Assembly (NCBI GenBank): GCA_964645795.1
Contig: CAZYCL010000005.1
Coordinates: 26,006-90,005, forward strand
Origin: an uncultured Planctomycetales bacterium
GTDB taxonomy: Bacteria > Omnitrophota > Gorgyraeia > Gygaellales > Profunditerraquicolaceae
DNA length: 64,000 nucleotides
Direction: 5' to 3'
The notes under the pieces were generated by a model. The model made no database searches, was not told the DNA's origin, and saw only the letters and a program-made list of their open reading frames with translations. Position numbers and translations under genes: made by a program. The first letter of the stretch is position 1; each line of letters begins with the position of its first letter. Shown piece by piece: positions 22,736 to 43,493 of the stretch.

Positions 22736-22753
22736 TATAGCGGTATACCCCTT

Positions 22754-25407: not shown

Positions 25408-26524
25408 AAAGCGCTTCTGTCTGGCTAACCATCTCCTGCTGCTGGTAGCTAGATGAAATAGATGCGCGCGCCTTCTCCGACATGCGCCTTAAAAGTTCCG
25501 GTTCGCTTAAAAGCCTGATTATCCTTTCGCTTGTGCCAATAACATCTTTTCGACCTACCAAAAAACCGTTTTCTCCCTCCGTCACAACCTCTTCAACCCC
25601 CCCGGTATCGGTGGCTACGACCGGCTTGCCAGCGGCAAGCGCCTCCAGCACCGCCACCGGCAAGCCTTCCCATAGCGAAGTAAGAACAAATATATCGAAG
25701 GCCTGGACGATCGTGGCGGCATCCCTGCGCCATCCCAAAAGCATCACGGTATCCTCCAGCTTCAGTTTGCGGATAAGCGCCTGGAGCTGCCGGCGAAGGT
25801 CTCCGTCACCTACAAGCACGAATCTTGCGTTGGTAATCTTTTTCTTCACCAGGGCCGCGACTCTAATGAAATCGGCGGGAGATTTTTGCGGCTTAAGGCA
25901 GGATACCGTGCCTATGACCGCTTCGTTATCCTTTATTCCCAGCGATCCCCTGATGGCCGGAGCCTCTTTAAAAGATTCATCGTGTTCTATGCCGTAGCGG
26001 ACGATGGCAAATTTCTGCTCCGGCGCAATGCCGCTGGCTATGCCTGCCTGCCTGTCGCGATCGCAGACCACGATTATCTTGCTAGAGCAACAAGCTGCCG
26101 CCCTTTCAAGCAGCATAAAGATCCTTCTTGCCGGGGCAGGCTGGCAATCATGAAAACTCCAGCCGTGCACCGTATGAAAAACGCTCTTTGTGCCGGCCAG
26201 AAATGCGGCAAACCTGCCCAGGATCCCGGCCTTTGAGCTGTGGGTATGGACGATCTGCGCCTTATGCTTCCTGATCGCGCACCATATCTCAAACAATGCC
26301 AGGATGTCCCGTAAGGGGTTTATGTTTCTTTCAAGGAATGGCGATCTTAGCAGGGTCAGGCCCGGTAAACCGAGGGCTTCATCAACAAGCAGGCCTTCTT
26401 TGGCGCTGATAAGGATGGGGTTGTATCTTTCTTTATCGATGCCGGCAAGGAGCCTTAAAAGCTGGGTCTGCGCACCGCCCAACTCCAGCTTCGTAATCAC
26501 AAAAAGGATGTTAGTTCTTCGCAT
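25367..26524 (-). CDS. Glycosyltransferase family 4 (GT-B)
   Basis: N-terminus ILFVITKLELGGAQ and a C-terminal EGLPVAVLEALAAGKPVVATDTGG donor-binding motif. Confidence 0.7.
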   Translation of the reverse strand: MRRTNILFVITKLELGGAQTQLLRLLAGIDKERYNPILISAKEGLLVDEALGLPGLTLLRSPFLERNINPLRDILALFEIWCAIRKHKAQIVHTHSSKAGILGRFAAFLAGTKSVFHTVHGWSFHDCQPAPARRIFMLLERAAACCSSKIIVVCDRDRQAGIASGIAPEQKFAIVRYGIEHDESFKEAPAIRGSLGIKDNEAVIGTVSCLKPQKSPADFIRVAALVKKKITNARFVLVGDGDLRRQLQALIRKLKLEDTVMLLGWRRDAATIVQAFDIFVLTSLWEGLPVAVLEALAAGKPVVATDTGGVEEVVTEGENGFLVGRKDVIGTSERIIRLLSEPELLRRMSEKARASISSSYQQQEMVSQTEALYALALGQGKSDDR

Positions 26525-26561
26525 CGGGAGAATGGGCCTAACGTGTTCTTTTGCGGAAAGG

Positions 26562-27299
26562 TCAGCGGGAAAACTCTACTTTTCCCCAGCTTATAAGGTT
26601 GTTCTTGACGATTATGATAACCCCCGCGACTCCGGGCACGGATTTTGCGTAATCAAGGGCGGGCTTAAGGTCTTCTTTGGATTTTATTTTGTTGCAGGTG
26701 GCGGTGGCGACCGCATCAGCAAGGACGGTACTCCGGGATAAAACTACCACGCTGTCAGCACAACCAAAACTTAAAGAATGCCCAATAGTTGCCGAAGATG
26801 TGCATATGCCCAAAGGCGTATCCTTGGGCTTGATGTTAAGTCTGAGCTTATTCCACAGCTTTGACCTGCCGGCATACAGTCCGACGCTGCGCCTCTTGGA
26901 GGTCTTTAAAAAGATGTCTCCGCCGTTCTCTACGATGACGTCCTTATACCCCTGTTTGAGCAGCCCCTTGCCCAGGAACTCCGCGATAGCCCCGGCCACA
27001 CTTGCCATCGGCCCGACATCGGCCTTCTTGGCAACACAAGCCATCTCCTGGATGATGCGCGGAGCGTTGATCTCCACGCTTATCGGCCTCAAGGTCGTAA
27101 GGAACCTGGGGTCCTTGTTGATGTAGTTCTCTATGTCCCAACGGTAAAGCCTTATCTGCTCACAGATTTGCTCTTTATCCACTGCCCTGTTGGTAAAGAT
27201 CTCCAGGTCCGTCTCTTTGGCTATTATATGGGTGAACTTAAGGTCTTTGGACCCGGCCCAGTCCCTGTAAAACCTTCTTTGGTAGCGTAAGCTTTTCAT
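26562..27299 (-). CDS. UPF0280 / ApbE-like family protein
   Basis: 245 aa. The GPMASVAGAIAE motif and overall size fit the UPF0280 family; function unknown. Confidence 0.4.
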   Translation of the reverse strand: MKSLRYQRRFYRDWAGSKDLKFTHIIAKETDLEIFTNRAVDKEQICEQIRLYRWDIENYINKDPRFLTTLRPISVEINAPRIIQEMACVAKKADVGPMASVAGAIAEFLGKGLLKQGYKDVIVENGGDIFLKTSKRRSVGLYAGRSKLWNKLRLNIKPKDTPLGICTSSATIGHSLSFGCADSVVVLSRSTVLADAVATATCNKIKSKEDLKPALDYAKSVPGVAGVIIIVKNNLISWGKVEFSR

Positions 27300-27301
27300 G
27301 C

Positions 27302-28309
27302 TTAACAGATGCGGGGGAACTGCTCCCCGGCAAGCTCCTCGATAATCCTTCGGGTTTTGAAAACGGTGCGCAGGATAACCTTCTTTTTTGGTTCGGGCAA
27401 AACCTCTCCGATAACGGCCGATTTTCTGCCTAAGGGATGCCTCTTCAGCCAGGCCAATATCATTTGCGCCTGCCTGGCCTCGACTACCAGCACGGCTTTA
27501 CCTTCGTTGGCGACAAATATCGGGTCTATCCCCAATATCTCCGAAGCCGCCCTTACCCTGGCAGAAACCGGGATGGATTTTTCGTCTATCATTATACCAA
27601 AATCCGAGGATTGCGCAATCTCATTAAGCGTGGTTGCCAGGCCTCCCCGTGTCGGATCGCGCATGAATTTTACCGCTTTTGTCCTTCTAATAACCGGCAA
27701 CAGCAGGCCGTTGAGCGCAGCGCAGTCGCTTTTAATACCGAACCCGAAATCAAGCTCTTTTCTCCTTGCCAGTACCGCCAGTCCGTGCTCACCGATGCAT
27801 CCGGTAACGATGATCTTATCCCCGGGCTTTATGCGCCTTATGGAAAGGTCCCTGTCGGCCATCACCCTCCCTATCCCGGATGTATTGATGAAAATCTTGT
27901 CGCAGGCCCCCTTCTCTACCACCTTAAGGTCTCCGGCAGCGATCTTCACTCCTGCATCCTTGGCGCTGCGGCTGATCGAATCAATCACCCTTTCAAAAAT
28001 ACCTTTCTCCAGACCTTCCTCGATTATAAGGCCTAAGGATAGAAATTGCGGCACTGCCGCAGACATCACCAGGTCATTGACCGTGCCGCAGACCGCAAGC
28101 TTTCCGATATCGCCTCCCGGGAAAAAGACGGGGCTGACCACAAAAGAATCGGTAGTAAAAGCCAGCTTTTGGCGGTATGGTATCAAAGAGCTGTCCCTGA
28201 GCTCTCCAAGCACGGGGTTAGAAAGCTTCTTAAGAATGACTCCTTCTATCAGCTGGCGGCTCAACTTCCCTCCGCTGCCGTGGCCTAAGAGTATCTTTTG
28301 CCAAACCAT
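27302..28309 (-). CDS. hypE: Hydrogenase maturation carbamoyl dehydratase HypE
   Basis: GHGSGG N-terminal motif; AFTTDSFVVSPVFFPGGDIGKLAVCGTVNDLVMSAA aligns with E. coli HypE; terminal PRIC cysteine. Confidence 0.8.
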   Translation of the reverse strand: MVWQKILLGHGSGGKLSRQLIEGVILKKLSNPVLGELRDSSLIPYRQKLAFTTDSFVVSPVFFPGGDIGKLAVCGTVNDLVMSAAVPQFLSLGLIIEEGLEKGIFERVIDSISRSAKDAGVKIAAGDLKVVEKGACDKIFINTSGIGRVMADRDLSIRRIKPGDKIIVTGCIGEHGLAVLARRKELDFGFGIKSDCAALNGLLLPVIRRTKAVKFMRDPTRGGLATTLNEIAQSSDFGIMIDEKSIPVSARVRAASEILGIDPIFVANEGKAVLVVEARQAQMILAWLKRHPLGRKSAVIGEVLPEPKKKVILRTVFKTRRIIEELAGEQFPRIC

Positions 28310-29927: not shown

Positions 29928-31055
29928 TTAGATCTTGTAGTTTTTTAGGAATATCTCCAGAGCCAAAGCACCCTTATGAAGGTTGGAGATATTTGCGTAT
30001 TCGTCGGCCATGTGCGCACAGGCATCACAACCAAACCCCGTAGCTATGGCCGGGATATTTTTTTGCTGGAAGAAGGTGATCACCGTAGCCCCTTCCGAAC
30101 CTCTTATCACCGGATGCGCCCCGGCCTGTTTCATCGCCTCAAAAAGCGAACGCACCAAAATATGCTTATCCGTAATTGCGTAAGGCTGCTGGATGCCTTC
30201 GATCTCTACCTGGAAGCTCCTGCTGCAGGCGCAGGCGATGAGTTTTAGCCTTTTGATGATCTCCTGCGCCCTCATCCCGGGCAGGAACCTGAAATCGAGT
30301 TCGAACTCGCACCATCCGGCTACCACATTTACCTTATCTCCACCTCTTATCGTTCCGATGTTCATGGTCGGCGGCCTTAGATACCTGTGTTTGCCTGCGC
30401 GGGGCAGTCCGTGCTCTTTGAGTTTTGCCAGCACGCACACCGCCTGATCGATAGCGTTAGTACCCAGGTGCGGGTATGCCCCGTGCGCTTTTTTTCCCCT
30501 GATCTTGACCTTTAAATGGAGCAGGCCCTTCTGGGATACTATAATACCGAAGTCATCCGCATCTAAAACCAGCGCCTGGCTGGCGCAGATCAAACTTTTT
30601 TCCAAAAGCGGTATGAGCCCCAGAGACGAACCGCTTTCTTCATCTGCGGTAGCGGCAAAGATAAGGTCGTAAGGAAGGCGTACGCCCTTCTCGACTATCC
30701 TGTTTATCGCCTCCATCCCACAGGCAAGATTCCCTTTACAGTCGCTGGCCCCCAGCCCGTAAAGCCTTGCACCGTTCATGCTGGCCTTAAAGGGGTTCTT
30801 CGACCAGTCTCTGCCCGCAGGCACCGTGTCCAAATGGGGAGTCAGCAACAAGGATTCCCGGCTGTTCTTTCCTTTTAATAGCGCGATGATGTTGGTGCGG
30901 TTCTTTTTAAACTCTATTGCGCGCACTTTCAGCCCCAGGCTTTTCAGGTGCCTGGCGACATAATAAGCTATCCGCGCCTCGTTGCCGGGCGGATTCTGGG
31001 AATCTATGGCGATGAGATCGCTGATAAGCCGCTCAAGCCTGTTTCTGTTTTTCAT
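29928..31055 (-). CDS. M20-family metallopeptidase / deacylase (ArgE/DapE-like)
   Basis: IAIDSQNPPGNE, HLDTV, metal ligand pattern, 375 aa. Confidence 0.65.
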   Translation of the reverse strand: MKNRNRLERLISDLIAIDSQNPPGNEARIAYYVARHLKSLGLKVRAIEFKKNRTNIIALLKGKNSRESLLLTPHLDTVPAGRDWSKNPFKASMNGARLYGLGASDCKGNLACGMEAINRIVEKGVRLPYDLIFAATADEESGSSLGLIPLLEKSLICASQALVLDADDFGIIVSQKGLLHLKVKIRGKKAHGAYPHLGTNAIDQAVCVLAKLKEHGLPRAGKHRYLRPPTMNIGTIRGGDKVNVVAGWCEFELDFRFLPGMRAQEIIKRLKLIACACSRSFQVEIEGIQQPYAITDKHILVRSLFEAMKQAGAHPVIRGSEGATVITFFQQKNIPAIATGFGCDACAHMADEYANISNLHKGALALEIFLKNYKI

Positions 31056-31704
31056 GTTCGGGAAAACCTCTCAGCGGGCAATCTTTGCATTTTGGTCTTT
31101 TTTTAAGGCAGTACTCTTTGCCCAATCTAACTAAAAGGGCATGAAACTCGTTGAATAATTTTGCGTCTTTCTTAAGCGAAGTGGTAAATAAATCCTGGAC
31201 CTGGGAATAATCGCTGTCGGCAGCGATCATCCCATGCCTGCCCAATATCCTCTTGGTATAGGCGTCAACTACAAAGACCGGCTTTCCCAGAGCGTAAAGC
31301 AGGATGGAATCCGCAGTCTCCTGGCCTACGCCATTAATCCCCAGCAGCTCTTGCCGCAGCCTTCTTTCTCCGGTCGCTTTCATCCTCCTGATGCTTGCGC
31401 CGTAGCGGTTGAAGAAAAAATCAAGGAAGCTCTTAAGCCTGCGGGCTTTTATATTATAGTAGCCTGCTGACCTGATGAGCGACGCCAGCCTTTTGTGCGA
31501 AAGACCGCGGAGTTTTCTCGCATCCAGGAGGCGCTTCTTTTTCAGGTTATCGAGCGCCTTCTCGACATTAGCCCAGCTTGTGCTCTGAGTAAGTATCGCC
31601 CCGACCATCACCTCGAAATCGGTCTCGGCCGGCCACCAGTGCTGCGGGCCGAAGGCGTTGAATAATCTCCTGTGAAAAGCGCTTAGCACAACGCAGGCAC
31701 TCAT
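31033..31704 (-). CDS. Endonuclease III-like HhH-GPD DNA glycosylase with a [4Fe-4S] loop
   Basis: HhH motif LLGINGVGQETAD...D and C-terminal CKDCPLRG Cys ligands. Confidence 0.6.
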   Translation of the reverse strand: MSACVVLSAFHRRLFNAFGPQHWWPAETDFEVMVGAILTQSTSWANVEKALDNLKKKRLLDARKLRGLSHKRLASLIRSAGYYNIKARRLKSFLDFFFNRYGASIRRMKATGERRLRQELLGINGVGQETADSILLYALGKPVFVVDAYTKRILGRHGMIAADSDYSQVQDLFTTSLKKDAKLFNEFHALLVRLGKEYCLKKRPKCKDCPLRGFPEHEKQKQA

Positions 31705-33638
31705 TCCTTTAGTTCGAGAGGATTATATTTGTAGTAGGCGAATATCGTATAGGCGGTACCCGCGACGGAACCGGTGCTGTGCCCCTTGGGGGTCCTCCAG
31801 CCATGCCCGGTATCTACATTATCAAGCGAGGCATAAGGCAGGCAGCTTTCCCCTTGGCCCGACGGCGAAGGGCTGGAGATAATCATCTTGCCCAGCTCTG
31901 CCAGATACATGTCGGCCTTTAGCTCATAGGTCCTGGCTTTGGCTATCGCTCCCTTCTTGAAATAATACTCGGCCATTATCCTGTATGAGAGGATCATCTG
32001 GGCGGTCCATTCCGGAGAAACTACCCCTCCGCGGCTGGTGTGGCGCTGGGCAGCGAAATCGAAACCTTTGACTGAGACGGTTTGGCCTTGCGGCCGCGCG
32101 TACTTTACTTCTACTGCGCAGTTCTTCTGTGCGAACTCCATGATCCTGTCTGGATTCATGCCTACTTCAAAAAGCTTTTCTGGACCGATGGCAGCTATCG
32201 ACCAGGCATAAGTGTCGGTGGCAATGGTCGAGTCGCCTTTGCCGCGCCTGATAGGCACCTCGCCCTTGGCGTAGGCGTAATTCAGCAGCCAGCTCAACGT
32301 CTTCTCAGCCGCCCCTTTATACATCTCCTTGCCGGTAAGCTTGTAGAGCATCCTAAAGAAGGCGTAGGCATCCAGGTTGTGTTCTGTAGAGTACCAATCT
32401 ATGCCCGGGCCTCCCCGCAGGCCTCCGTCATCATCCTCGCCCTGCAAATACATGACCCCTTGGGCGATCTGCTCGGCCAGCCCGAGATAATTGTTATCCT
32501 GGGTCTTAGAGGTGTACTGCACAATGGCTATCCCCAGCCAGACATTGGGCCCGACGTTAACGACGAACTCCGCAGGAGAGCCGTCATTGGCATAATAGGC
32601 GTTAAAGAATCTGCCGTCCGATCGTTTGGCGCGCCCGGAAAAGAAATCCAGGATCTTTTTGGCACGCTCATAATCTGCAGAATTGGTGTAAGCCTGCAGC
32701 ACCAGTGCCTGGTCATATAAGAACGCCCAATTCTCTACCTCGCTGTCACCCTCAAAGCTTATGACCAGGCCGGTCCTGGGGTTCTGATGGACTCTCAGCC
32801 ACCGGTACATCTTGTCGATATTGGCTTTTTCAAGGCTGGCCTTTTGGCGGTCCAGGCGCAGCAGGTCTTCGGCAATGGCATTTTCCTTGTTCTGGATAAA
32901 CACCAGCTGCTCCTGAAGGGCGCCCTTTTCCTTTGAGATCCTCTCTATCAGAGAGTTCAGTTTGTCGATCTGTACCAGGTTCCCTTTCTTCTCCTGATCT
33001 CGCCTTATCCTTTCCTCTTCGAGTGTGCGTATGCGCATCTCAGCTTCATGGATCTTTAGCTGCAGGTCCTCTCTTTCTTTGGCAGTCTCTTTTATCTTTT
33101 GCTTGGCAACGGTGGAATCCTGCAGGATCTTTACCAGCTGATCAACCAGGGCCTTATTGCCCTTTATCAACTGCATGTTGACGAAGCCGTTCAGGGCCAC
33201 CCCGATCAACAAAAAGGATATGACCGTCATCGTGACCGGGAAGAACAGCTTCCTGGCCCAGGCATAACGCATGATCTGGTTGTTCTGCCCGGCGTCTATC
33301 TCCTCATATTTGAGCCCGACCAAATACTTATTGTTGGCCGCTGGAACTTCTTCCACCCAGGTAACCGCGGTCATCGCCGTGACCGGGACCTTTAGGACCG
33401 GCATCTCCATCTCCAGTCCCAGTTTTACCTGTTTGCTCTTTATGGCCTGAGCTAATTCCTGGTTGAGATTATTTATCGCCAAACATATTCCGCCCCGGCT
33501 GACATTGTTGGTAAAACCCTGCAGCCATCCGGAGATAAATTTCTCGCTGTCGAGGCTCAACACCCTGAATTGGACGGGAAAGACAGAATCCAGGCGCAGG
33601 TAGCGGCGGCGGTTGCGCATGGGATCATTTTTATTCAT
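31701..33638 (-). CDS. PilZ-domain (c-di-GMP receptor) membrane protein fused to a coiled coil and a C-terminal (alpha/alpha)6 glycoside-hydrolase-like domain
   Basis: PilZ motifs RNRRRYLR (RxxxR) and NVSRGGI (D/NxSxxG). One TM helix (TMTVISFLLIGVALNGFV). A heptad-rich segment. The C-terminal ~380 aa is rich in aromatic residues in a six-hairpin-glycosidase-like pattern (WLGIAIVQY, DGGLRGG, TEHNLDAYAFF). Confidence 0.6.
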   Translation of the reverse strand: MNKNDPMRNRRRYLRLDSVFPVQFRVLSLDSEKFISGWLQGFTNNVSRGGICLAINNLNQELAQAIKSKQVKLGLEMEMPVLKVPVTAMTAVTWVEEVPAANNKYLVGLKYEEIDAGQNNQIMRYAWARKLFFPVTMTVISFLLIGVALNGFVNMQLIKGNKALVDQLVKILQDSTVAKQKIKETAKEREDLQLKIHEAEMRIRTLEEERIRRDQEKKGNLVQIDKLNSLIERISKEKGALQEQLVFIQNKENAIAEDLLRLDRQKASLEKANIDKMYRWLRVHQNPRTGLVISFEGDSEVENWAFLYDQALVLQAYTNSADYERAKKILDFFSGRAKRSDGRFFNAYYANDGSPAEFVVNVGPNVWLGIAIVQYTSKTQDNNYLGLAEQIAQGVMYLQGEDDDGGLRGGPGIDWYSTEHNLDAYAFFRMLYKLTGKEMYKGAAEKTLSWLLNYAYAKGEVPIRRGKGDSTIATDTYAWSIAAIGPEKLFEVGMNPDRIMEFAQKNCAVEVKYARPQGQTVSVKGFDFAAQRHTSRGGVVSPEWTAQMILSYRIMAEYYFKKGAIAKARTYELKADMYLAELGKMIISSPSPSGQGESCLPYASLDNVDTGHGWRTPKGHSTGSVAGTAYTIFAYYKYNPLELKE

Positions 33639-36019
33639 CAGCGGCTTTCCTTTTCTATGACCACCCTCTGCTTGATGCCCTTGGCGATCTCGCCGAACGA
33701 TGATTTGAAGCTCTGGTAATCTTCCTGGGGGATGCTTTCTTTAACGACCTGCGTCCTTTCCCTGAACTGGATCACTCGGCTGCCCCGGAGGCGGTAGCCG
33801 GATGAGAAACTAAACCACGGTGTCTTTTTGTCCACGTCTGCCGGGATATATTTTATAACAAAACCGTCCGGTAATGCAATCTCAAATATGGATTCCCTGA
33901 TCTGCGTTGCTCCGAAATCAATGGGGTAGCGGCGCTTATCCTTGGCTATCAGGGATGTATCAAGCCTGCCCAGCTGCGGCATTATCCTTAAATTTCCGGC
34001 AGCCGTAAAGTACTCCGGTCCGCTGAAAGCGTAAGACAAAATTATCGGCAGGTTTAAATCCTTCAGATTGTCTATCCTGTAACCGGCCAACCTTGAACCA
34101 ATGGAAATCTCCTGTATGCGCTCTTTGAGCTTTTCCTGGATAAGCTCCGGCTGGGTATATAGAAGCCAGTAGCGTTGTGCCTGATCGTAAATGCCCCTGG
34201 TGAAGATTTCTCTCTTGGCCTTAATAGTCTCATCGCCTTCCACGGTTATCCTAAGGGTCTGAAGAAGGCTGTTATGGCTGGCGTCTAAACGCGGGGTCTG
34301 GTCTATGCTGTAGCCTGAATCCCTAAAGACCATTACCTGACGGCCCTGGTCATCGCGCGGCAGGTCCTTGAAAGGGCATGTTTCTGCAGTAGGATCCATA
34401 AAAATGACCTGCGGGCCGAGGTCTAGCGCCGCGATGCAGTGGTTGAATATGCTCGAGGCAAACCCCTTGTCCGCATCATAATAATCCCGGGTGGATATCA
34501 GTACCGGATAAGCCTTCAACCCGGCCTCTCTTAACATGGATACCAACAGTATCGCCTGGTCTTTGCAGTCGCCGTACCTGTTCTTGTAGATATCGCTGGC
34601 GCTGTGCGGCTCATGCCCTGCCTGGCCGTACTCTACCGCTACATAACGGATCTTTTGCGCGCAAAAATTATATATGGCGCGCGCTTTTTCCTCCTGGCCT
34701 TTACGGCCACGCACCAGCCTTTTCACCTCGGCTTTAAGGCCCGCATCGCAGGCGATCTTCTCGCGCGCCAATCCCCACCACCAGTCATAAACCTCTTGCC
34801 ACGAAGAAAAGCTGGACACTAGTACCGATGGGTTGACGTGCGAGAACGGGGGCATATTGGCTTCGGGTATGATCTGGGGTATATCCTTGAACTTCCAGCG
34901 ATATACATCTTTATCCCCGCCCCTCGTCATCACCGGGCTCATCTGGGCGTTGAAGTCGTTGTACTCCTGGTTTACGGCTCTGACATGAAGCTTTCTGCCC
35001 TGGGGCAGACTGATGCTCAAATGCGCCTCAACAAGCGGCTCCTGTGACTGCAAAGGGTAGACCAGCGCAAAATCCTTATTGTTGACCAGCCGGCTGCGGT
35101 AGATCTTCAGTTTGTATTCGATGAAGACGCCTTCCGCGACTTCGGGAAAAGATATGATGAAGGCGCGCACATTGCTGTAAAGCGGGAAGTTCAGATATTT
35201 TGAGACGTCGCGGATGTGCCTGGTGCCTACTTCTACGACGCTGCCGTCGCTTTTTATGGTGCGGGCGTACTCCAGCTGGATGCGTTCGTAAGTAGAATCG
35301 TAATCAACCGCGGTCTCGGCAAACTCTTCTTTGCCCCGCTCGTTGATTATCTTGACGATATAGTGAAGGCTGGTGATCTGGGTATTCTGAGGAGTGATTT
35401 CGGTTGCCTCATCGGCGTAGAGCATGATGGCGCCCGCCTGAGGATATTTGTCCTGGGAAGGGCAGGCGCAGATCTTATCGTAAATCTTGCGGTCGATATC
35501 CTTTATATTAACGCAGCCGCTCTTTCTTTCGATCGCCTCGATACGCAAGGCAGCCATTGCGGCCAGGTCCTTATCCTTTATCTTGCGATGAATCTTTACT
35601 GCCTCATCGAAAAGATTGAGCTTCTCACAAGTAAGCGCGTGATAAAAAAGGGCCTGGTCGTCGCCAGCGTCAAACTTACTGAAGAACTCCAGCGCCCGGG
35701 TAAAATCCCCGGACCGGTAATTTGCGATAGCCAGATATCTGTCGCAGCGCGGGTCTTTCGATCTTTCAAACGCCGCTATCGCATCTTCGAAATCGCCGTG
35801 CGAATAGTAAAGCTTGCCCAGCTCAAAGAACAGGGCCTCGTCCTGCGGGGCCGAGGCAATGGATCTTTTATATTCCGCCGCCGCCTCTTTATAATACTGT
35901 TCGGACAATAACGCAAGCCTCTCGGCCTGGCCTGTTTGGCTTGATTGCGAACAACCCGCAAGAAAAATAAAAAAGCAGAGCAGATACAAAGAAATGCTGG
36001 GTTTGATCCTGTTCTTCAT
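33638..36019 (-). CDS. TPR + DUF3857 + transglutaminase-like cysteine protease domain lipoprotein
   Basis: Signal peptide with lipobox (FLAGCSQ), N-terminal TPR-like repeats, and a transglutaminase core YGDCKDQAILLVSMLR with downstream His/Asp. Confidence 0.55.
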   Translation of the reverse strand: MKNRIKPSISLYLLCFFIFLAGCSQSSQTGQAERLALLSEQYYKEAAAEYKRSIASAPQDEALFFELGKLYYSHGDFEDAIAAFERSKDPRCDRYLAIANYRSGDFTRALEFFSKFDAGDDQALFYHALTCEKLNLFDEAVKIHRKIKDKDLAAMAALRIEAIERKSGCVNIKDIDRKIYDKICACPSQDKYPQAGAIMLYADEATEITPQNTQITSLHYIVKIINERGKEEFAETAVDYDSTYERIQLEYARTIKSDGSVVEVGTRHIRDVSKYLNFPLYSNVRAFIISFPEVAEGVFIEYKLKIYRSRLVNNKDFALVYPLQSQEPLVEAHLSISLPQGRKLHVRAVNQEYNDFNAQMSPVMTRGGDKDVYRWKFKDIPQIIPEANMPPFSHVNPSVLVSSFSSWQEVYDWWWGLAREKIACDAGLKAEVKRLVRGRKGQEEKARAIYNFCAQKIRYVAVEYGQAGHEPHSASDIYKNRYGDCKDQAILLVSMLREAGLKAYPVLISTRDYYDADKGFASSIFNHCIAALDLGPQVIFMDPTAETCPFKDLPRDDQGRQVMVFRDSGYSIDQTPRLDASHNSLLQTLRITVEGDETIKAKREIFTRGIYDQAQRYWLLYTQPELIQEKLKERIQEISIGSRLAGYRIDNLKDLNLPIILSYAFSGPEYFTAAGNLRIMPQLGRLDTSLIAKDKRRYPIDFGATQIRESIFEIALPDGFVIKYIPADVDKKTPWFSFSSGYRLRGSRVIQFRERTQVVKESIPQEDYQSFKSSFGEIAKGIKQRVVIEKESR

Positions 36020-36022
36020 CTT

Positions 36023-37129
36023 TTACCGGCCTGTCGTGGAGTTCCGAGCGTAATTATAGTAAGAGTTGCAAGATCCCTCGGATGAGACCATGCATGGGCC
36101 AACCGGGTCTTGCGGCGTACAAGCCTTGCCAAAAAGCGGGCAGGCTTTCGGCAATATCAACCCTTTCAGGACATCGCCGCACCTGCACTTGCGCGGCATG
36201 CCAGCGGTATGGGTCTTAACCGAAGGCAGGAGTCCGGCGGCATCAAAATCGGACAGGCTTCTTTTGATAACAAGTCCGCTGTCGGCAATGACCCCCAGCC
36301 CCCGCCAAAGCGCGGCAGCGGGCTTGAACACCCGATAGATTATCTTTCTTGCGCGGGGGTTGCCGTTTGTTTTGACCAAACGGCTGTACTGGTTTTCCAA
36401 TACGGGCCTTGGTCTGTTTATGCCGCGGATAAGAAGGTAAAGGCCCTGCACGATGTCCAGGGGCTCAAATCCCGCGATACAACAGCTTATGCCGTGCTTT
36501 TTGGGAATAAATGCGTAGGGCCTGGTGCCGATTATCGCCGATACGTGCCCCGGGCAGAGAAACCCATCAAGGGCCAGCCTCTTGTCTTTAAGCAGATGCC
36601 TCAATGCCTGCGGCATGGTCTTTAGCGCACAGAGAAAAAATAGATTTTTTAACTTCTGTTTTCGGGCGGCCAGAATGCTGGCAGCAATGGTTGGGGCGGT
36701 GGTTTCAAATCCTACCGCAAGAAATATGACCCTTTTATCGGGGTTAAGCCTGGCGATCTTAAGGGCATCTATGGGAGAGTAAGCCAGGCGGACATTTCCG
36801 AAATGCGCCCTTTCTTTTTCCAGAGAAGAGCCGCTGCCCGGCACGCCTAACATATCGCCGAAGCTTACGATAAGGTTTTTTTCGTCTCCGGAAAGGGCGA
36901 TGGCTTGGTCAATATAAGACTGGTCGCTTACGCATACGGGGCAACCCGGGCCAGAGATAAGCCGCAGGCTCGCGGGTAAAAGCTTGTCCAGGCCGAACCT
37001 TAAGAAATTGTGAGTATGTGTGCCGCAGACCTCCATTATGCTGACTTGCCGCTTAGGCATCAACGCCTTTATCTTTGAAGCGACCTTCAATACCAGCTCT
37101 TTACTGCGGTACTCATCAACGTATCTCAT
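36023..37129 (-). CDS. hypD: Hydrogenase maturation factor HypD
   Basis: MEVCGTHTH, GPGCPVCV and C-terminal CPLFG...C motifs. Confidence 0.8.
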   Translation of the reverse strand: MRYVDEYRSKELVLKVASKIKALMPKRQVSIMEVCGTHTHNFLRFGLDKLLPASLRLISGPGCPVCVSDQSYIDQAIALSGDEKNLIVSFGDMLGVPGSGSSLEKERAHFGNVRLAYSPIDALKIARLNPDKRVIFLAVGFETTAPTIAASILAARKQKLKNLFFLCALKTMPQALRHLLKDKRLALDGFLCPGHVSAIIGTRPYAFIPKKHGISCCIAGFEPLDIVQGLYLLIRGINRPRPVLENQYSRLVKTNGNPRARKIIYRVFKPAAALWRGLGVIADSGLVIKRSLSDFDAAGLLPSVKTHTAGMPRKCRCGDVLKGLILPKACPLFGKACTPQDPVGPCMVSSEGSCNSYYNYARNSTTGR

Positions 37130-37325
37130 CTATGATCTTAAGGGTATCCTTGGCCCTGCGGGCATCTATCTTTTCAATGGCAAAGCCGGCGTGCACCAGC
37201 ACATAATCTCCCTTCTTCAGCCCGCAGAGAAGCTGAATGTTCACTTTTCTTCTAAGCCCCGAGCTTTCGACGCTGGCAAACTCTTCGCCTATTTCTTTGA
37301 CCTTCATGGGAATACCCAGACACAT
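37116..37325 (-). CDS. hypC: Hydrogenase maturation chaperone HypC
   Basis: 69 aa starting MCLGIP with an essential Cys2; OB-fold size. Confidence 0.75.
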   Translation of the reverse strand: MCLGIPMKVKEIGEEFASVESSGLRRKVNIQLLCGLKKGDYVLVHAGFAIEKIDARRAKDTLKIIDEIR

Positions 37326-37326
37326 A

Positions 37327-38451
37327 TCAACCTCCTGAAAAAGCCGCTATCACCGCCTGGCCAAGCGATATCCCTGAATCAGAGCAGGAAAGCTTTTTAT
37401 GGATGAAAACTTTAAATCCCGATTTATATAATAAGCCCAAAGCCAGCTTTAGTAAAATATTATTTTGGAATACCCCGCCGGACAAAACCACCTTTTCTAT
37501 GCCGCTGGCTTGCCTTATGCGCCTTGACAATAACAGGGACATCTGCGCTATGCTCAGATGGAATTTATAGGCCATCTCGGCCCTGGGCAGGCCTTTTTTG
37601 ATATCCGAGACTATCCCGCCAAAGATCCCCTGCGGGCGGATAATATAAGCGTTGGCGCGCCTGTCTAACGCAAAACCGTAGGCTTTGGCCCTGCCCCTGA
37701 AAAAAGACGCTTGCCTTTCCAGCTTGATCGCAAGCTCCGCCTCTAACCCAGCGGAAACCTCGCCCAATATGATAGCGGCGGCGGCATCAAAGAGCCTGCC
37801 CATGCTGCTGGAAAGCGGACAGTTTACCCCCTTTACCTGCATGCTTCGAATCAGGCGCCATTTGCGAAGAGAAATGAGACTGACAAACGGGATATCTGAT
37901 TTCAGGAAGTCGTTACCGTAAAGACCGTGAAGCCAGAAGCAGGCAAGCCGCCATGGCTCTGCGATCGCCCGTTCCCCTCCGATCAAAGGAACCTCTTCAA
38001 GATGGGCCAGCCTCCGGCAGCTCTTGTAATCACAGACCAAAAACTCCGCCCCCCAAAGACCGGAATCGGTCCCCATCCCCGTTCCATCAAAAGCCACCCC
38101 TATCACCTTTTCGTTCTTCAGGCCGTTCTCAGCCATGCATGAGGCAATATGCGCGTGATGGTGCCCTATGCCTATTGCCTTAATCCCGCCTAACCCGCCT
38201 TCTGAGACAAAAACGGTCGAACGGTAGCCGGGATGCAGGTCGTAGGCTGCGATGCGCGGACGCAGCTTCATAAACCTGTCGACATCCTTGACGAACGCCT
38301 GATAATCATCGTAAACACCCAGGTCATTATGGACCGGGCTCAGATATGCCGAGTTTTTCCTTACCAGGCATACCGTGTTCTTTGTGTGGCTGCCCGTGGC
38401 AAGCACGGTTGCAGGGGACCTAAAGGCTAGTTTTACGTCTGCGGCGCTCAA
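37327..38451 (-). CDS. hypF: HypF-like carbamoyltransferase, C-terminal Kae1/YgjD-like domain only; no acylphosphatase, Zn-finger or YrdC domains
   Basis: VLATGSHTKNTVCL at the start corresponds to the beginning of the HypF Kae1-like domain. HHHAHIASC metal site and VVLSGGVFQN motif. The upstream gene is an unrelated exonuclease, so the N-terminal half is not encoded here. Confidence 0.6.
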   Translation of the reverse strand: MSAADVKLAFRSPATVLATGSHTKNTVCLVRKNSAYLSPVHNDLGVYDDYQAFVKDVDRFMKLRPRIAAYDLHPGYRSTVFVSEGGLGGIKAIGIGHHHAHIASCMAENGLKNEKVIGVAFDGTGMGTDSGLWGAEFLVCDYKSCRRLAHLEEVPLIGGERAIAEPWRLACFWLHGLYGNDFLKSDIPFVSLISLRKWRLIRSMQVKGVNCPLSSSMGRLFDAAAAIILGEVSAGLEAELAIKLERQASFFRGRAKAYGFALDRRANAYIIRPQGIFGGIVSDIKKGLPRAEMAYKFHLSIAQMSLLLSRRIRQASGIEKVVLSGGVFQNNILLKLALGLLYKSGFKVFIHKKLSCSDSGISLGQAVIAAFSGG

Positions 38452-39278
38452 GGGACCATCTCCATATCGATAATATTGTCCACCCTGAATGTCCTTTCGT
38501 CCTTTTTCAAAGAACAGTACCCTATCAGGTAGAACTTATTATTGGTTTCTCTTACCTGGCGCGGAACGACTATGCGCTCGGATAACTGGGCATCGGTGCT
38601 GCCCAAATATTTTATCTTTATGCTTATCTTCTTATCGATGGCCTTCTGGATTTCGCCGACCTTGCGGTTATTGATGTCGTCAAGCAGGGTGGCATTGATG
38701 CCGAAGAGGCTGACGAATTTATCAAAATCATCTATGCCTTTCTGTTGAAGCATTTCCACAAACCTTAGAAAGACATCGTAGGTCAGCAGAACATCCGCCA
38801 GGGCACGGTGATCCTGCTTGGTCTTCACCCCCAGCTTCTCAACCACTGAAGATAATGCATACCTGTCCTGCCCCGGAAGGAGCCGGCGCGCCATTTTCAA
38901 GGCATCAACTACGATCAGGTCTTTCGGCAGGCAGGCGCCGATAAGAGAAAGCTCCTCTTTGATGAACTCCATATCGAAGCTGGCATTATAGGAGCACAGG
39001 CAGCTGCCTTCGATAAAATCCAGAAACCTTGGCAGCACATCCTTGGCTAGAGGCGCATCTTTTATCATATCCCGGCTTATGCGGTTTACCGCGTAAGCCG
39101 CCGGGGAAACCTCTCTTTGGGGATTTATAAGCGAGCTGAACTGGGCAATCGCCCTTTTGCCCTCAAACCTTAGAGCGGCTATCTCTATGATCCTGTCTCC
39201 GGCGCCAGCACAAAGTCCGGTGGTTTCAGTATCAAAGATAGTGAACTCGATCTCTCCAAGCTTCTTATGCATGCTCAT
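38448..39278 (-). CDS. DEDDh 3'-5' exonuclease (DnaQ/epsilon-like) fused to a C-terminal WYL-like domain
   Basis: Exo I FDTETTG, Exo II YNASFDMEF, Exo III HRALADV. The C-terminal 90 aa (IKIKYLGSTDAQLSERIVVPRQV...KFYLIGYCSLKKDERTFRVDNIIDMEMV) matches the WYL consensus (WYL.A.c...R.FR.DRI). Confidence 0.6.
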   Translation of the reverse strand: MSMHKKLGEIEFTIFDTETTGLCAGAGDRIIEIAALRFEGKRAIAQFSSLINPQREVSPAAYAVNRISRDMIKDAPLAKDVLPRFLDFIEGSCLCSYNASFDMEFIKEELSLIGACLPKDLIVVDALKMARRLLPGQDRYALSSVVEKLGVKTKQDHRALADVLLTYDVFLRFVEMLQQKGIDDFDKFVSLFGINATLLDDINNRKVGEIQKAIDKKISIKIKYLGSTDAQLSERIVVPRQVRETNNKFYLIGYCSLKKDERTFRVDNIIDMEMVP

Positions 39279-43489: not shown

Positions 43490-43493
43490 ACGC

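What the first reader, a model, noticed from the sequence alone, without database searches (positions are those of the whole stretch)
31701..33638. PilZ c-di-GMP receptor fused through a TM helix and coiled coil to a periplasmic (alpha/alpha)6 glycosidase-like domain
Canonical PilZ motifs (RNRRRYLR ... NVSRGGI) sit at the cytoplasmic N-terminus. One TM segment and a ~150-aa heptad-rich stretch follow, then a ~380-aa aromatic-rich domain with six-hairpin-glycosidase-like blocks. The topology resembles Alg44 (PilZ-TM-periplasmic domain). Here, though, the periplasmic part looks like a polysaccharide-processing enzyme, not a membrane-fusion domain. This implies c-di-GMP control of glycan trimming or export across the membrane. 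It lies beside the transglutaminase-like lipoprotein and within a glycosyltransferase/EPS-rich region.
Basis: partly seen in the sequence, partly recalled or inferred. Interest (0 to 1): 0.55.

Follow-up and report, generated by a model that had tools for sequence, protein, structure and literature searches.

The report
Membrane c-di-GMP receptor with sugar-enzyme-like domain
This gene from an uncultivated Omnitrophota bacterium encodes a membrane protein with an intact cyclic-di-GMP sensor inside the cell, joined by a rigid helical stalk to a sugar-enzyme-like barrel outside it, a combination I found described nowhere and whose activity is untested.

Summary
ORF 31701..33638 (-) encodes 645 aa. 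It has a PilZ domain above Pfam's threshold, and both c-di-GMP motifs are conserved in 176/176 relatives apart from a variable Ser. One TM helix, a helical stalk and a 371-aa C-terminal domain follow. AlphaFold models that domain confidently (pLDDT 94), and Foldseek places it among (alpha/alpha)6 glycosidase and epimerase barrels.

Three corrections apply.
- The "coiled coil" is most likely an antiparallel alpha-hairpin, so the barrel would sit back near the inner membrane.
- The barrel is a separate family, remotely related to GH76. The GH76 catalytic Asp-Asp aligns to Gly-Pro, but a different set of invariant carboxylates lines the funnel.
- The neighbourhood is a phylum-wide syntenic block of unrelated genes, not an EPS operon. 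The transglutaminase-like lipoprotein is adjacent in 70% of loci.

The fusion occurs in at least 380 species-level genomes, and all named ones are Omnitrophota. Elsewhere the barrel occurs with signal peptides, in giant proteins, and fused after a TM segment to glycan-synthase modules.

The best reading is a c-di-GMP-controlled extracytoplasmic glycan-processing enzyme. This is a new variant of PilZ signalling. Its substrate, catalysis and ligand binding are untested.

The parts
31701..33638 (-). Whole gene: PilZ - TM - helical hairpin - (alpha/alpha)6 barrel, 645 aa plus stop
   Evidence: ORF. An identical protein (P0001) is present in public assemblies. More than 1,200 full-length relatives were found.
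33264..33614 (-). Cytoplasmic PilZ domain (residues 9-125)
   Evidence: Pfam PF07238 scores 27.6 bits against a gathering score of 22.5. AF2 gives a six-strand beta-barrel followed by a C-terminal helix, pLDDT 83-89. The nearest solved PilZ by sequence is B. subtilis MotI/YpfA 5VX6, with both motifs aligned, but the match is weak at E = 0.34.
33594..33608 (-). RxxxR c-di-GMP motif (R11-R-Y-L-R15)
   Evidence: R11 and R15 are each conserved in 176/176 aligned sequences. Motif definition taken from bioRxiv 10.1101/814665.
33489..33506 (-). [D/N]hSxxG c-di-GMP motif (N45-V-S47-R-G-G50)
   Evidence: D/N 176/176, hydrophobic h 176/176, G50 176/176. The Ser position is S in 92, G in 68, A in 9, N in 5 and C in 2. 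The window protein has Ser.
33180..33248 (-). Single transmembrane helix (residues 131-153)
   Evidence: Only hydrophobic window with mean above 1.6; the maximum is 2.35 for the window starting at residue 131. In the AF2 model it lies inside one unbroken helix, 116-215.
32994..33179 (-). Stalk arm 1 (residues 154-215), continuous with the TM helix
   Evidence: AF2 helix 116-215. The membrane-proximal half is the most conserved part of the arm.
32979..32993 (-). Predicted hairpin tip (residues 216-220, EKKGN)
   Evidence: The AF2 helix breaks here. It is the only indel hot-spot of the family alignment and the entropy maximum of the stalk.
32790..32978 (-). Stalk arm 2 (residues 221-283), running into the first helix of the barrel
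   Evidence: AF2 helix 221-283. Covariation with arm 1 is enriched on the antidiagonal i+j = 432-440: z = 4.1-4.9, p = 5e-5. Mirror symmetry of conservation peaks at i+j = 437.
31704..32816 (-). Extracytoplasmic (alpha/alpha)6 barrel (residues 275-645)
   Evidence: AF2 pLDDT 94, pTM 0.94. Foldseek matches GH126, GH15, GH76, MmpH and AGE/YihS barrels at TM 0.57-0.69 and 8-15% identity. The profile gives marginal GH76 hits at E about 2e-3.
32709..32717 (-). Y308-D309-Q310 motif at the N-terminus of inner helix 1
   Evidence: Y and D are nearly invariant across 22 diverse domain sequences at about 30-46% identity. Helix position.
32538..32552 (-). G363-P-N-V-W367 motif, aligned to the GH76 'DDNxW' catalytic motif
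   Evidence: G and W are invariant. G-P aligns to the D-D of 4mu9, 6u4z and 4c1s. The corresponding adjacent Asp pair in BcGH76 (D124/D125) is the nucleophile and acid/base (PMC8362039).
32376..32390 (-). S417-T-E419-H-N421 motif, with invariant Glu at the N-terminus of inner helix 3
   Evidence: E419 is invariant in both alignments. Helix position.
32214..32234 (-). D469...A-T-D475 motif, carboxylates at the N-terminus of inner helix 4
   Evidence: D475 is invariant and D469 nearly invariant across the diverse set. Both are invariant in the PilZ-fused clade.
32004..32012 (-). E543-W-T545 motif at the N-terminus of inner helix 5
   Evidence: E543 is invariant and T545 nearly invariant. Helix position.
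31797..31835 (-). Y602 ... G-H612-G-W614 loop before the last inner helix
   Evidence: Y602 is invariant and W614 nearly invariant across the diverse set.
33638..36019 (-). Upstream partner candidate: TPR - DUF3857 - transglutaminase-core lipoprotein (793 aa)
   Evidence: Pfam DUF3857 at 9.3e-30 and Transglut_core at 2e-11. Lipobox LAG|C, and GDC / NHC / DPT motifs consistent with a Cys-His-Asp triad, judged by inspection and not aligned to a solved transglutaminase core. Its stop codon overlaps the PilZ start by 1 nt. It is adjacent on the same strand in 42 of 60 informative loci.
31033..31704 (-). Downstream co-transcribed gene: HhH-GPD base-excision glycosylase-like protein (probably unrelated in function)
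   Evidence: Pfam HhH-GPD at 4e-15. A 4-nt ATGA overlap with the PilZ gene. Adjacent downstream in 67 of 74 loci.

Best explanation
The gene encodes a single-pass inner-membrane protein of Omnitrophota.

Predicted layout:
- The cytoplasmic N-terminus is a canonical PilZ domain with intact c-di-GMP-binding motifs.
- Its C-terminal helix is predicted to run without a break into the transmembrane helix and on into the first arm of an antiparallel alpha-helical hairpin of about 60 + 60 residues.
- The second arm returns and runs directly into the first helix of an (alpha/alpha)6 barrel on the outer face of the membrane.

The barrel belongs to a distinct family, remotely related to GH76 but without the GH76 Asp-Asp dyad. 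Its funnel is lined by its own invariant carboxylates and aromatics (D309, E419, D469/D475, E543, Y602, W367, W614).

Most likely mechanism (inferred): c-di-GMP binding to PilZ repositions the continuous helix. That shift is passed through the rigid hairpin and changes either the activity or accessibility of a glycan-cleaving or glycan-transferring site, or its contacts with periplasmic partners. In most genomes one candidate partner is the co-translated transglutaminase-like lipoprotein.

What is shown: the architecture, the fold, motif conservation, extracytoplasmic use of the barrel and the phylum-wide distribution. What is inferred: ligand binding, catalysis, the substrate and the direction of regulation.
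For: PilZ domain. It scores above Pfam's gathering score. RxxxR and the D/N, h and G positions of [D/N]hSxxG are each 176/176, using the motif definitions in 10.1101/814665. That paper also reports that PilZ domains in fusion proteins invariably retain c-di-GMP binding.

Full-length AF2 model. It gives a beta-barrel PilZ, helix 116-215, a break at 216-220 and helix 221-283 leading into the barrel.

Hairpin.
- The break coincides with the only indel hot-spot in the family.
- Stalk lengths differ by amounts that are not multiples of seven.
- Covariation is enriched on i+j = 432-440, z = 4.1-4.9.
- Mirror symmetry of conservation peaks at i+j = 437.
- A natural variant, P0159, lacks the whole stalk but keeps PilZ-TM-barrel.

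Barrel.
- pLDDT 94, and 292 (alpha/alpha)6 matches in the PDB.
- Each invariant motif lies at the N-terminus of one of six alternating helices, next to the long loops.
- E419, D475 and E543 are invariant at about 30% identity across standalone, giant-protein and PilZ-fused contexts.

Location outside the cytoplasm. Standalone relatives start with signal peptides or lipoboxes. In P0202, P0203 and P0209 a TM-like segment lies 12-32 residues before the barrel.

Link to glycan metabolism. P0203 and P0209 fuse the barrel to GT2 / beta-glucan-synthase-like modules. One relative, P0177, reaches Pfam's GH76 threshold.

Distribution. 380 species-level genomes carry a relative, and the top 80 are Omnitrophota.
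Against: - No biochemical evidence exists for c-di-GMP binding, hydrolysis or any substrate.
- The GH76 catalytic dyad is absent. The barrel could therefore be an epimerase, lyase, transglycosylase or lectin-like module.
- Foldseek similarity is spread evenly over hydrolases and epimerases at 8-15% identity.
- The Ser of [D/N]hSxxG is Gly in 39% of relatives. That could lower affinity in those proteins.
- The gene neighbourhood gives no substrate clue. It is a syntenic block of unrelated genes, and 30% of loci lack the transglutaminase gene.
- No GGDEF, EAL or HD-GYP gene was found in the window by motif scan.
- The hairpin rests on a monomer AF2 model and modest covariation from 159 sequences. 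A test taking the maximum over all bands was not significant, p = 0.16.
Confidence: 0.55

Rival explanations
1. It is an Alg44-like adaptor or co-polymerase rather than an enzyme. The PilZ-TM-hairpin-barrel protein would be a structural subunit of a trans-envelope polysaccharide (or other) secretion machine. The alpha-hairpin would dock on an outer-membrane or periplasmic partner, as in membrane-fusion proteins. The barrel would only bind or guide the nascent glycan, and c-di-GMP would switch on assembly or polymerisation.
For: The N-terminal PilZ plus one TM plus periplasmic part is the Alg44 layout (described in 10.1101/814665). The stalk is probably an antiparallel hairpin of the kind found in periplasmic adaptor proteins. 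Barrel relatives occur in the same polypeptide as GT2 / glucan-synthase modules.
Against: No HlyD/MFP domain was detected. No GT2 synthase, outer-membrane channel or export gene is adjacent, either in the window or in 80 related loci. Three invariant and two nearly invariant funnel carboxylates, kept across very different protein contexts, are more typical of catalysis than of passive binding. The hairpin-less variant P0159 keeps the rest of the protein.
Confidence: 0.2
2. It is a LapD/LapG-style inside-out switch. The receptor's periplasmic part (hairpin and/or barrel) would bind or release the co-translated transglutaminase-like (Cys-His-Asp) lipoprotein according to cytoplasmic c-di-GMP. 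This would control proteolysis or cross-linking of an envelope or surface protein. The barrel would serve mainly as a docking platform.
For: The transglutaminase-core lipoprotein gene overlaps the receptor gene by 1 nt and carries triad-like motifs. It is adjacent on the same strand in 42 of 60 loci, even where the genes further upstream differ.
Against: 18 of 60 loci lack the transglutaminase gene next to the receptor, so the pairing is not obligatory. The neighbour is Pfam Transglut_core + DUF3857. No match to LapG's own family appeared among its listed Pfam hits. The receptor has no HAMP, GGDEF or EAL modules. The barrel's conserved funnel is shared with relatives that have no such neighbour.
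Confidence: 0.12
3. The PilZ domain is a ligand-independent protein-interaction or folding module, and the protein is a constitutive membrane-anchored envelope enzyme or anchor with no second-messenger control.
For: Some PilZ domains do not bind c-di-GMP (10.1101/814665). [quoted passage not shown] No c-di-GMP turnover genes were found in the window.
Against: Non-binding PilZ domains have disrupted motifs. Here both Arg, the D/N, the h and the last Gly are each conserved in 176/176 at 40-76% identity, which indicates selection on the binding site. GGDEF domains and many pilZ genes are reported in Omnitrophota genomes (10.1101/2023.11.21.568195).
Confidence: 0.08

Closest known systems
Alg44 (Pseudomonas alginate co-polymerase; PilZ - TM - periplasmic MFP-like domain)
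   Same: N-terminal canonical PilZ, one transmembrane helix and a periplasmic C-terminal part. A probable alpha-hairpin like those of membrane-fusion proteins. The likely logic is the same: c-di-GMP sensed in the cytoplasm and output outside the membrane.
   Different: The periplasmic globular part is an (alpha/alpha)6 barrel, not a HlyD/MFP module. There is no adjacent Alg8-like GT2 or export genes. The family is confined to Omnitrophota as far as could be seen.
GH76 alpha-1,6-mannanases (e.g. BT3792 4C1S, BT2949 4V1S, BcGH76) and fungal Dfg5/Dcw1
   Same: The (alpha/alpha)6 fold and the only detectable sequence relationship: profile E about 2e-3, with a shared 'NxW...' helix and following repeats. 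Foldseek E about 1e-7. A few family members reach Pfam's GH76 threshold.
   Different: The catalytic Asp-Asp of GH76 aligns to Gly-Pro (PMC8362039). The window protein scores 14-16 bits against a gathering score of 25.9. The family has its own invariant residues: E419, D475, E543 and Y602.
GH76-like domain found by structure prediction in giant Omnitrophota 'Archaeovorin' proteins (West-Roberts et al., bioRxiv 10.1101/2023.11.21.568195)
   Same: Same phylum and the same kind of fold assignment (4C1S-like). The barrel studied here has clear homologues inside proteins of 2,000-7,886 aa. That paper also notes many small pilZ genes near giant genes.
   Different: Here the barrel is fused directly to PilZ in a 645-aa single-pass protein that is conserved across the phylum. 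The paper does not describe this fusion. I could not confirm that its domain is the same family, because no sequence was compared.
LapD-LapG inside-out c-di-GMP signalling
   Same: A cytoplasmic c-di-GMP receptor linked through the membrane to a periplasmic output. In most loci the neighbour is a transglutaminase-fold Cys-His-Asp lipoprotein.
   Different: The receptor module is PilZ, not a degenerate GGDEF-EAL with HAMP. The periplasmic part is a hairpin plus barrel. The neighbour matched Transglut_core + DUF3857, not LapG's own family. The pairing is absent in 30% of loci.
BcsA-PilZ with BcsZ (GH8, (alpha/alpha)6) in cellulose secretion
   Same: It combines a c-di-GMP-binding PilZ with a periplasmic (alpha/alpha)6 glycan-processing module in one functional unit. 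Barrel relatives are fused to processive GT2 / glucan-synthase modules.
   Different: In Bcs the PilZ gates a GT2 synthase and the GH8 enzyme is a separate soluble protein. Here the PilZ is fused to the barrel itself, and there is no synthase in the locus.

Membership tests
PilZ domain (PF07238), c-di-GMP-binding type | Match to the family profile above the curated threshold | tested here: met
   27.6 bits against a gathering score of 22.5, E = 3.8e-6, profile positions 1-99 of 102.
PilZ domain (PF07238), c-di-GMP-binding type | RxxxR motif | tested here: met
   R11-RYL-R15. Both Arg are conserved in 176/176 aligned sequences.
PilZ domain (PF07238), c-di-GMP-binding type | [D/N]hSxxG motif | tested here: met
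   N45-V-S47-R-G-G50 in the window protein. D/N, h and G are each 176/176. Ser is replaced by Gly in 68 and by A, N or C in 16 of the 176 aligned sequences.
PilZ domain (PF07238), c-di-GMP-binding type | Six-stranded beta-barrel followed by a C-terminal helix | tested here: met
   AF2 strands 14-27, 39-46, 50-56, 72-77, 86-97 and 104-114, then a helix from residue 116. pLDDT 83-89.
PilZ domain (PF07238), c-di-GMP-binding type | Binds c-di-GMP | not testable with these tools
   Needs ITC, DRaCALA or a similar binding assay on residues 1-125.
Six-hairpin (alpha/alpha)6 glycosidase / AGE-epimerase fold | Twelve helices in two concentric layers, with long loops on one face | tested here: met
   AF2 pLDDT 94 with 12 main helices. 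292 PDB matches at E <= 1e-3; the 50 listed are all (alpha/alpha)6 glycosidases or epimerases, TM up to 0.69.
Glycoside hydrolase family 76 | Match to Pfam Glyco_hydro_76 above the gathering score | tested here: not met
   14.1-16.4 bits against 25.9 for the window protein. Only some relatives pass, for example P0177 at 26.6 bits, and a few homologues carry a precomputed PF03663 hit.
Glycoside hydrolase family 76 | Adjacent Asp-Asp catalytic dyad (nucleophile and acid/base) | tested here: not met
   The DD of 4mu9, 6u4z and 4c1s aligns to G363-P364, and G363 is invariant in the family. Roles of the dyad are from PMC8362039. The underlying alignments are marginal, at E about 2e-3 to 0.1.
Glycoside hydrolase family 76 | Endo-alpha-1,6-mannanase activity | not testable with these tools
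   An enzyme assay is needed.
Alg44-type c-di-GMP co-polymerase | N-terminal PilZ, one TM helix and a periplasmic C-terminal part | tested here: met
   Extracytoplasmic location is inferred from signal peptides and preceding TM segments in relatives.
Alg44-type c-di-GMP co-polymerase | Periplasmic HlyD / membrane-fusion-protein domain | tested here: not met
   No HlyD/MFP family appears in the Pfam or NCBIfam results. The globular part is an (alpha/alpha)6 barrel. Only the alpha-hairpin resembles adaptor proteins.
Alg44-type c-di-GMP co-polymerase | Encoded with its GT2 polymerase and export genes | tested here: not met
   The flanking genes are transglutaminase-like, HypD/F, HhH-GPD, M20 peptidase, PAC2 and HAD. 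The same holds in the 80 related loci.
LapD/LapG-type inside-out system | Receptor with HAMP plus degenerate GGDEF-EAL, and a LapG-family protease partner | tested here: not met
   The receptor has PilZ only. The neighbour matches Transglut_core + DUF3857, and LapG's own family is not among its listed Pfam hits. It is absent from 18 of 60 loci.

The most novel reading that the evidence does not exclude
This phylum-wide Omnitrophota protein is a new type of inside-out c-di-GMP transducer. Ligand binding to PilZ would be passed mechanically along one continuous helix (PilZ C-helix, TM, hairpin arm) to switch a previously unrecognised family of extracytoplasmic glycan-active enzymes. These enzymes are GH76-related but have a different catalytic apparatus. 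The protein would thereby remodel the cell envelope, or act on host or prey surface glycans, in these ultra-small, putatively predatory or parasitic bacteria. The same barrel in the giant surface proteins of the phylum would be the catalytic unit of that lifestyle. The co-translated transglutaminase-like lipoprotein would be a second, LapG-like output.
Probability: 0.15. Interest if true: 0.8.

Novelty: new variant of a known kind. Interest (0 to 1): 0.5.

Why it matters
PilZ receptors are known to control processes outside the cytoplasm by gating a synthase (BcsA) or by acting through a membrane-fusion-like domain (Alg44). A PilZ wired directly to an enzyme-like barrel on the far side of the membrane would be a third solution.

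It would also be a compact system for studying how second-messenger binding crosses a membrane through a single helix.

The barrel defines an uncharacterised family on the edge of GH76, with a different set of conserved carboxylates. It recurs in the giant proteins that have been proposed to mediate the predatory or parasitic lifestyle of Omnitrophota. Assigning it an activity would therefore help annotate hundreds of proteins in a phylum with very little experimental data.

The protein is conserved in at least 380 species-level genomes, so it is probably part of the core envelope biology of the phylum.

Tried and rejected
- Sequence search of the full protein against PDB chains gave only noise.
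- NCBIfam and PADLOC gave only coiled-coil noise for the stalk.
- An EPS-operon context was considered and rejected. tblastn of the window's neighbours on 80 related loci shows a conserved block of unrelated genes: tRNA-binding, CxxCxxCC, LPG-synthase-C, RNase T-WYL, hyp genes, HhH-GPD, M20, PAC2 and HAD. The glycosyltransferase genes lie only at the far end.
- A single long parallel coiled-coil 'ruler' of about 17 nm was considered. I now think it less likely than a hairpin. It is not excluded, because a test over all antidiagonal bands gave p = 0.16.
- GH76 membership is rejected on the threshold and on the catalytic dyad.
- Pfam scans of 18 multidomain relatives for partner domains were mostly empty.
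- Literature searches for DUF3857 and for PilZ-glycosidase fusions found nothing relevant.
- A motif scan of the window for GGDEF, EAL, HD-GYP and further PilZ genes found none.
- There is no paralogue of either domain in the window.
- Mapping the invariant residues onto the catalytic residues of structural neighbours was not possible, because the tools do not expose model coordinates.

Full report

The ORF is at exactly the stated coordinates: 31701..33638 on the minus strand, 645 aa, starting at the first start codon after the upstream stop. Pfam finds a PilZ domain at residues 9-125, at 27.6 bits against a gathering score of 22.5.

The two c-di-GMP motifs, as defined by Galperin and Chou (bioRxiv 10.1101/814665), are R11-RYL-R15 and N45-V-S47-R-G-G50.

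There is one hydrophobic segment, residues 131-153. It is the only 19-residue window with a Kyte-Doolittle mean above 1.6. A proline-free stretch follows that is 56% E/K/R/Q/L. After that comes a 371-residue domain with 13.5% W/Y/F.

The protein is not an isolated case. A search of the 5.8-billion-protein collection returned 1,206 relatives. The best 120 are all 633-668 aa and cover 98-100% of the query at 59-76% identity. Every one that carries a source name is from Candidatus Omnitrophota.

**2. The PilZ domain**

I aligned the window protein with 175 PilZ-fused relatives, including representatives whose barrel domain is only 33-50% identical to the window's. Conservation is as follows:
- both Arg of RxxxR: 176/176;
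- the D/N, the hydrophobic h and the final Gly of [D/N]hSxxG: 176/176 each;
- the Ser: S in 92, G in 68, A in 9, N in 5 and C in 2.

The window protein has the canonical Ser. The full-length AlphaFold2 model gives six strands followed by a C-terminal helix, at pLDDT 83-89. The closest solved PilZ by sequence is B. subtilis MotI/YpfA (5VX6). Both motifs align, but the match is weak at E = 0.34.

Actual c-di-GMP binding cannot be tested here.

**3. The C-terminal domain**

A search of 1.84 billion cluster representatives with residues 275-645 alone found 979 relatives at E <= 1e-3. They fall into three groups:
- PilZ-fused proteins of about 650 aa;
- standalone proteins of about 370-450 aa, many starting with signal peptides or lipoboxes;
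- proteins of 2,000-7,886 aa.

I built a 22-sequence alignment across these contexts, at 29-46% identity to the window (A2). It gave an AlphaFold2 model with pLDDT 94 and pTM 0.94.

Foldseek against the PDB returned 292 matches at E <= 1e-3. All 50 listed are (alpha/alpha)6 barrels:
- GH126 CPF_2247 (3REN);
- the GH15 isomaltose glucohydrolase 5Z3A (identified in PMC12446779);
- GH76 mannanases (4V1S, 4C1S, 6U4Z);
- MmpH (7QSJ);
- AGE-type epimerases and isomerases (8H1L, 7AG4/2ZBL, cellobiose 2-epimerases).

TM-scores are 0.57-0.69 for nearly all of these, with identity of only 8-15% and rmsd of 5-7 A for most. The fold claim is confirmed, but no solved family is close.

At sequence level, the only signal is to GH76. 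The A2 profile hits 4MU9, 6U4Z, 6RY0 and 4C1S at E = 0.002-0.1. Pfam Glyco_hydro_76 scores 14-16 bits for the window protein, below the 25.9 threshold. A few relatives pass it.

In the alignments to three wild-type GH76 chains, the GH76 motif 'DDNxW' lies on the family's invariant 'GPNxW'. The corresponding adjacent Asp pair in BcGH76 (D124/D125) is the nucleophile and the acid/base (PMC8362039). So the GH76 catalytic apparatus is absent.

The family has its own invariant or nearly invariant residues: Y308-D309, G363/W367, E419 (in S-T-E-H-N), D469 and D475 (in A-T-D), E543 (in E-W-T), Y602 and W614. In the model, each of these motifs sits at the N-terminal end of every second helix: model helices 33-45, 88-105, 144-161, 200-210, 268-287 and 351-361. 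Each lies next to the long inter-helix loops.

In (alpha/alpha)6 enzymes that face forms the substrate funnel. This is established knowledge of the fold, and is illustrated for MmpH in PMC9883506.

Three invariant and two nearly invariant carboxylates, plus aromatics, are kept at about 30% identity across very different protein contexts. That argues for a catalytic site more than for a passive binding site. I could not measure distances, because model coordinates are not exposed.

**4. The stalk is probably a hairpin**

The full-length model (pLDDT 80, pTM 0.66) has one unbroken helix from residue 116 to 215. This covers the PilZ C-terminal helix, the TM segment and 62 further residues. A five-residue break follows at 216-220. 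A second helix of 63 residues (221-283) then continues as the first helix of the barrel.

Five observations favour an antiparallel hairpin over one long parallel coiled coil:
- The break coincides with the only indel hot-spot in the family alignment.
- The length of TM plus stalk in 173 relatives ranges from 128 to 210. The common values (149, 142, 141, 139, 145, 137, 161, 167) are not spaced by heptads.
- APC-corrected mutual information between the two arms (159 sequences, effective number 110) is enriched on the antidiagonal predicted from the break, i+j = 432-440. This gives z = 4.9 with a pair shuffle and z = 4.1 (p = 5e-5) with a column shuffle. The best band over all registers is 437, although a test taking the maximum over all bands is not significant at p = 0.16.
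- Per-column entropy is mirror-symmetric about the tip. The correlation peaks at i+j = 437 (r = 0.56) and shows heptad periodicity.
- An Omnitrophota variant (P0159/P0271) lacks the whole stalk and joins the TM helix to the barrel through about 38 residues. That deletion is easy to tolerate if the stalk is a hairpin that returns the chain to the membrane.

I estimate the hairpin at about 70% likely. It would place the barrel near the outer face of the inner membrane. This matches three multidomain relatives in which the barrel lies 12-32 residues after a TM-like segment.

**5. Genomic context**

The gene is translationally coupled on both sides. The upstream stop overlaps its start by 1 nt, and its stop overlaps the next start by 4 nt.

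Upstream is a 793-aa lipoprotein with a lipobox (LAG|C), TPR repeats, DUF3857 and a transglutaminase core, carrying Cys-His-Asp-type motifs. Downstream is an HhH-GPD glycosylase-like gene.

A scan of GTDB species representatives found 380 genomes encoding a relative. The top 80 are Omnitrophota, apart from a few MAG labels reading 'uncultured Planctomycetales' or 'Margulisiibacteriota'.

In those 80 loci:
- the transglutaminase-like gene is adjacent on the same strand in 42 of the 60 loci with enough upstream sequence, and absent from the locus in 18;
- the HhH-GPD gene follows in 67 of 74;
- M20 peptidase, PAC2, HAD, RNase T-WYL and LPG-synthase-C genes are also syntenic (examples).

This is a conserved block of functionally unrelated genes, not an EPS operon. 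The GT4/GT2/ABC genes lie 5-10 kb away. The pairing with the transglutaminase gene is frequent and tight, but not obligatory.

**6. Other architectures of the barrel**

Two relatives, P0203 (3,011 aa) and P0209 (2,179 aa), combine several modules. They have GT2 / 1,3-beta-glucan-synthase-like modules, a B12-binding radical-SAM module, a TM-like segment and then the barrel. One relative is fused to an S8 peptidase.

West-Roberts et al. (bioRxiv 10.1101/2023.11.21.568195) reported a GH76-like (4C1S-like) structure in giant Omnitrophota proteins, and small pilZ genes next to giant genes. They do not describe this PilZ-barrel fusion.

These associations link the barrel to glycan synthesis and processing outside the cytoplasm.

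**7. Most likely mechanism**

Shown: the architecture, the fold, the motifs, the extracytoplasmic use of the barrel and the distribution.

Inferred: c-di-GMP binds PilZ. The signal travels along the continuous PilZ-helix / TM / hairpin path to the barrel. The barrel then cleaves, transfers or edits a glycan at the outer face of the inner membrane, or changes its contacts with a partner such as the transglutaminase-like lipoprotein.

Rivals:
- an Alg44-like non-catalytic adaptor (0.2);
- a LapD/LapG-style switch that controls the transglutaminase-like protein (0.12);
- a ligand-independent PilZ (0.08).

**8. Comparison and novelty**

The protein works like Alg44 or LapD in that a cytoplasmic c-di-GMP signal produces a periplasmic output. 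It fails the membership tests for both:
- no MFP domain and no synthase neighbour, so not Alg44-type;
- no HAMP-GGDEF-EAL and no LapG-family partner, so not LapD/LapG-type.

It is a member of the PilZ family and of the six-hairpin fold class. It is not a GH76 member, because both the threshold and the catalytic dyad fail.

In databases it is annotated only as 'PilZ domain-containing protein' or 'hypothetical protein'. I found no paper describing it. That holds only for the library searched.

I rate it a new variant of a known kind. It deserves moderate interest as a conserved, testable inside-out c-di-GMP module, and as an entry point to an uncharacterised barrel family in a poorly studied phylum.

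Noticed in passing
window 36023-38451 (-) and 27302-28309 (-): The hydrogenase-maturation genes are split. A HypF-like gene with only the C-terminal Kae1-like domains (374 aa), a small HypC (about 37116-37325, placed from locus L001) and HypD lie upstream of the transglutaminase/PilZ pair. An AIR-synthase-type (HypE-like) gene lies eight genes downstream. In related genomes the hyp genes at this position are replaced by chorismate-binding and aminotransferase genes, or are absent.
   Followed up: partly
P0203 (3,011 aa) and P0209 (2,179 aa), relatives: The same barrel is the C-terminal module of multidomain proteins. These carry GT2 / 1,3-beta-glucan-synthase-like, B12-binding and radical-SAM modules, with a TM-like segment 16-32 residues before the barrel. 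This is an unusual synthase / radical-SAM / barrel combination.
   Followed up: partly
P0159 / P0271 (Omnitrophota, 532 / 552 aa): A natural variant of the family lacks the stalk of about 120 residues and joins PilZ-TM to the barrel through about 38 residues.
   Followed up: partly
window 33489-33506 (-), residue 47 of the family: The Ser of the [D/N]hSxxG c-di-GMP motif is Gly in 39% of relatives (68 of 176), while every other motif position is invariant. Whether the Gly variants bind c-di-GMP equally well is unknown.
   Followed up: partly
window 38448-39278 (-): An RNase T-type exonuclease is fused to a C-terminal WYL domain (276 aa). It is syntenic with the PilZ gene in many Omnitrophota loci.
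   Followed up: no
window 18356-21519 (-): Two tandem D-Ala-D-Ala-ligase-like ATP-grasp genes lie next to a lysine-2,3-aminomutase-like radical-SAM gene, just after an EF-G gene. They may form a beta-lysine or peptide-ligation pathway.
   Followed up: no
window 41153-44327 (+): A 778-aa PMT_2-type (dolichyl/undecaprenyl-phosphate-sugar-dependent) glycosyltransferase is followed by an overlapping GT2 gene on the opposite strand from the main block.
   Followed up: no
window 21686-27299 (-): An AbpE_bact-family gene (Pfam hit in locus L001 only), GT4, GT2, an MsbA-like ABC exporter and a second GT2 form the only glycan-biosynthesis cluster near the finding. It is 5-10 kb downstream and separated from it by unrelated genes.
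   Followed up: partly
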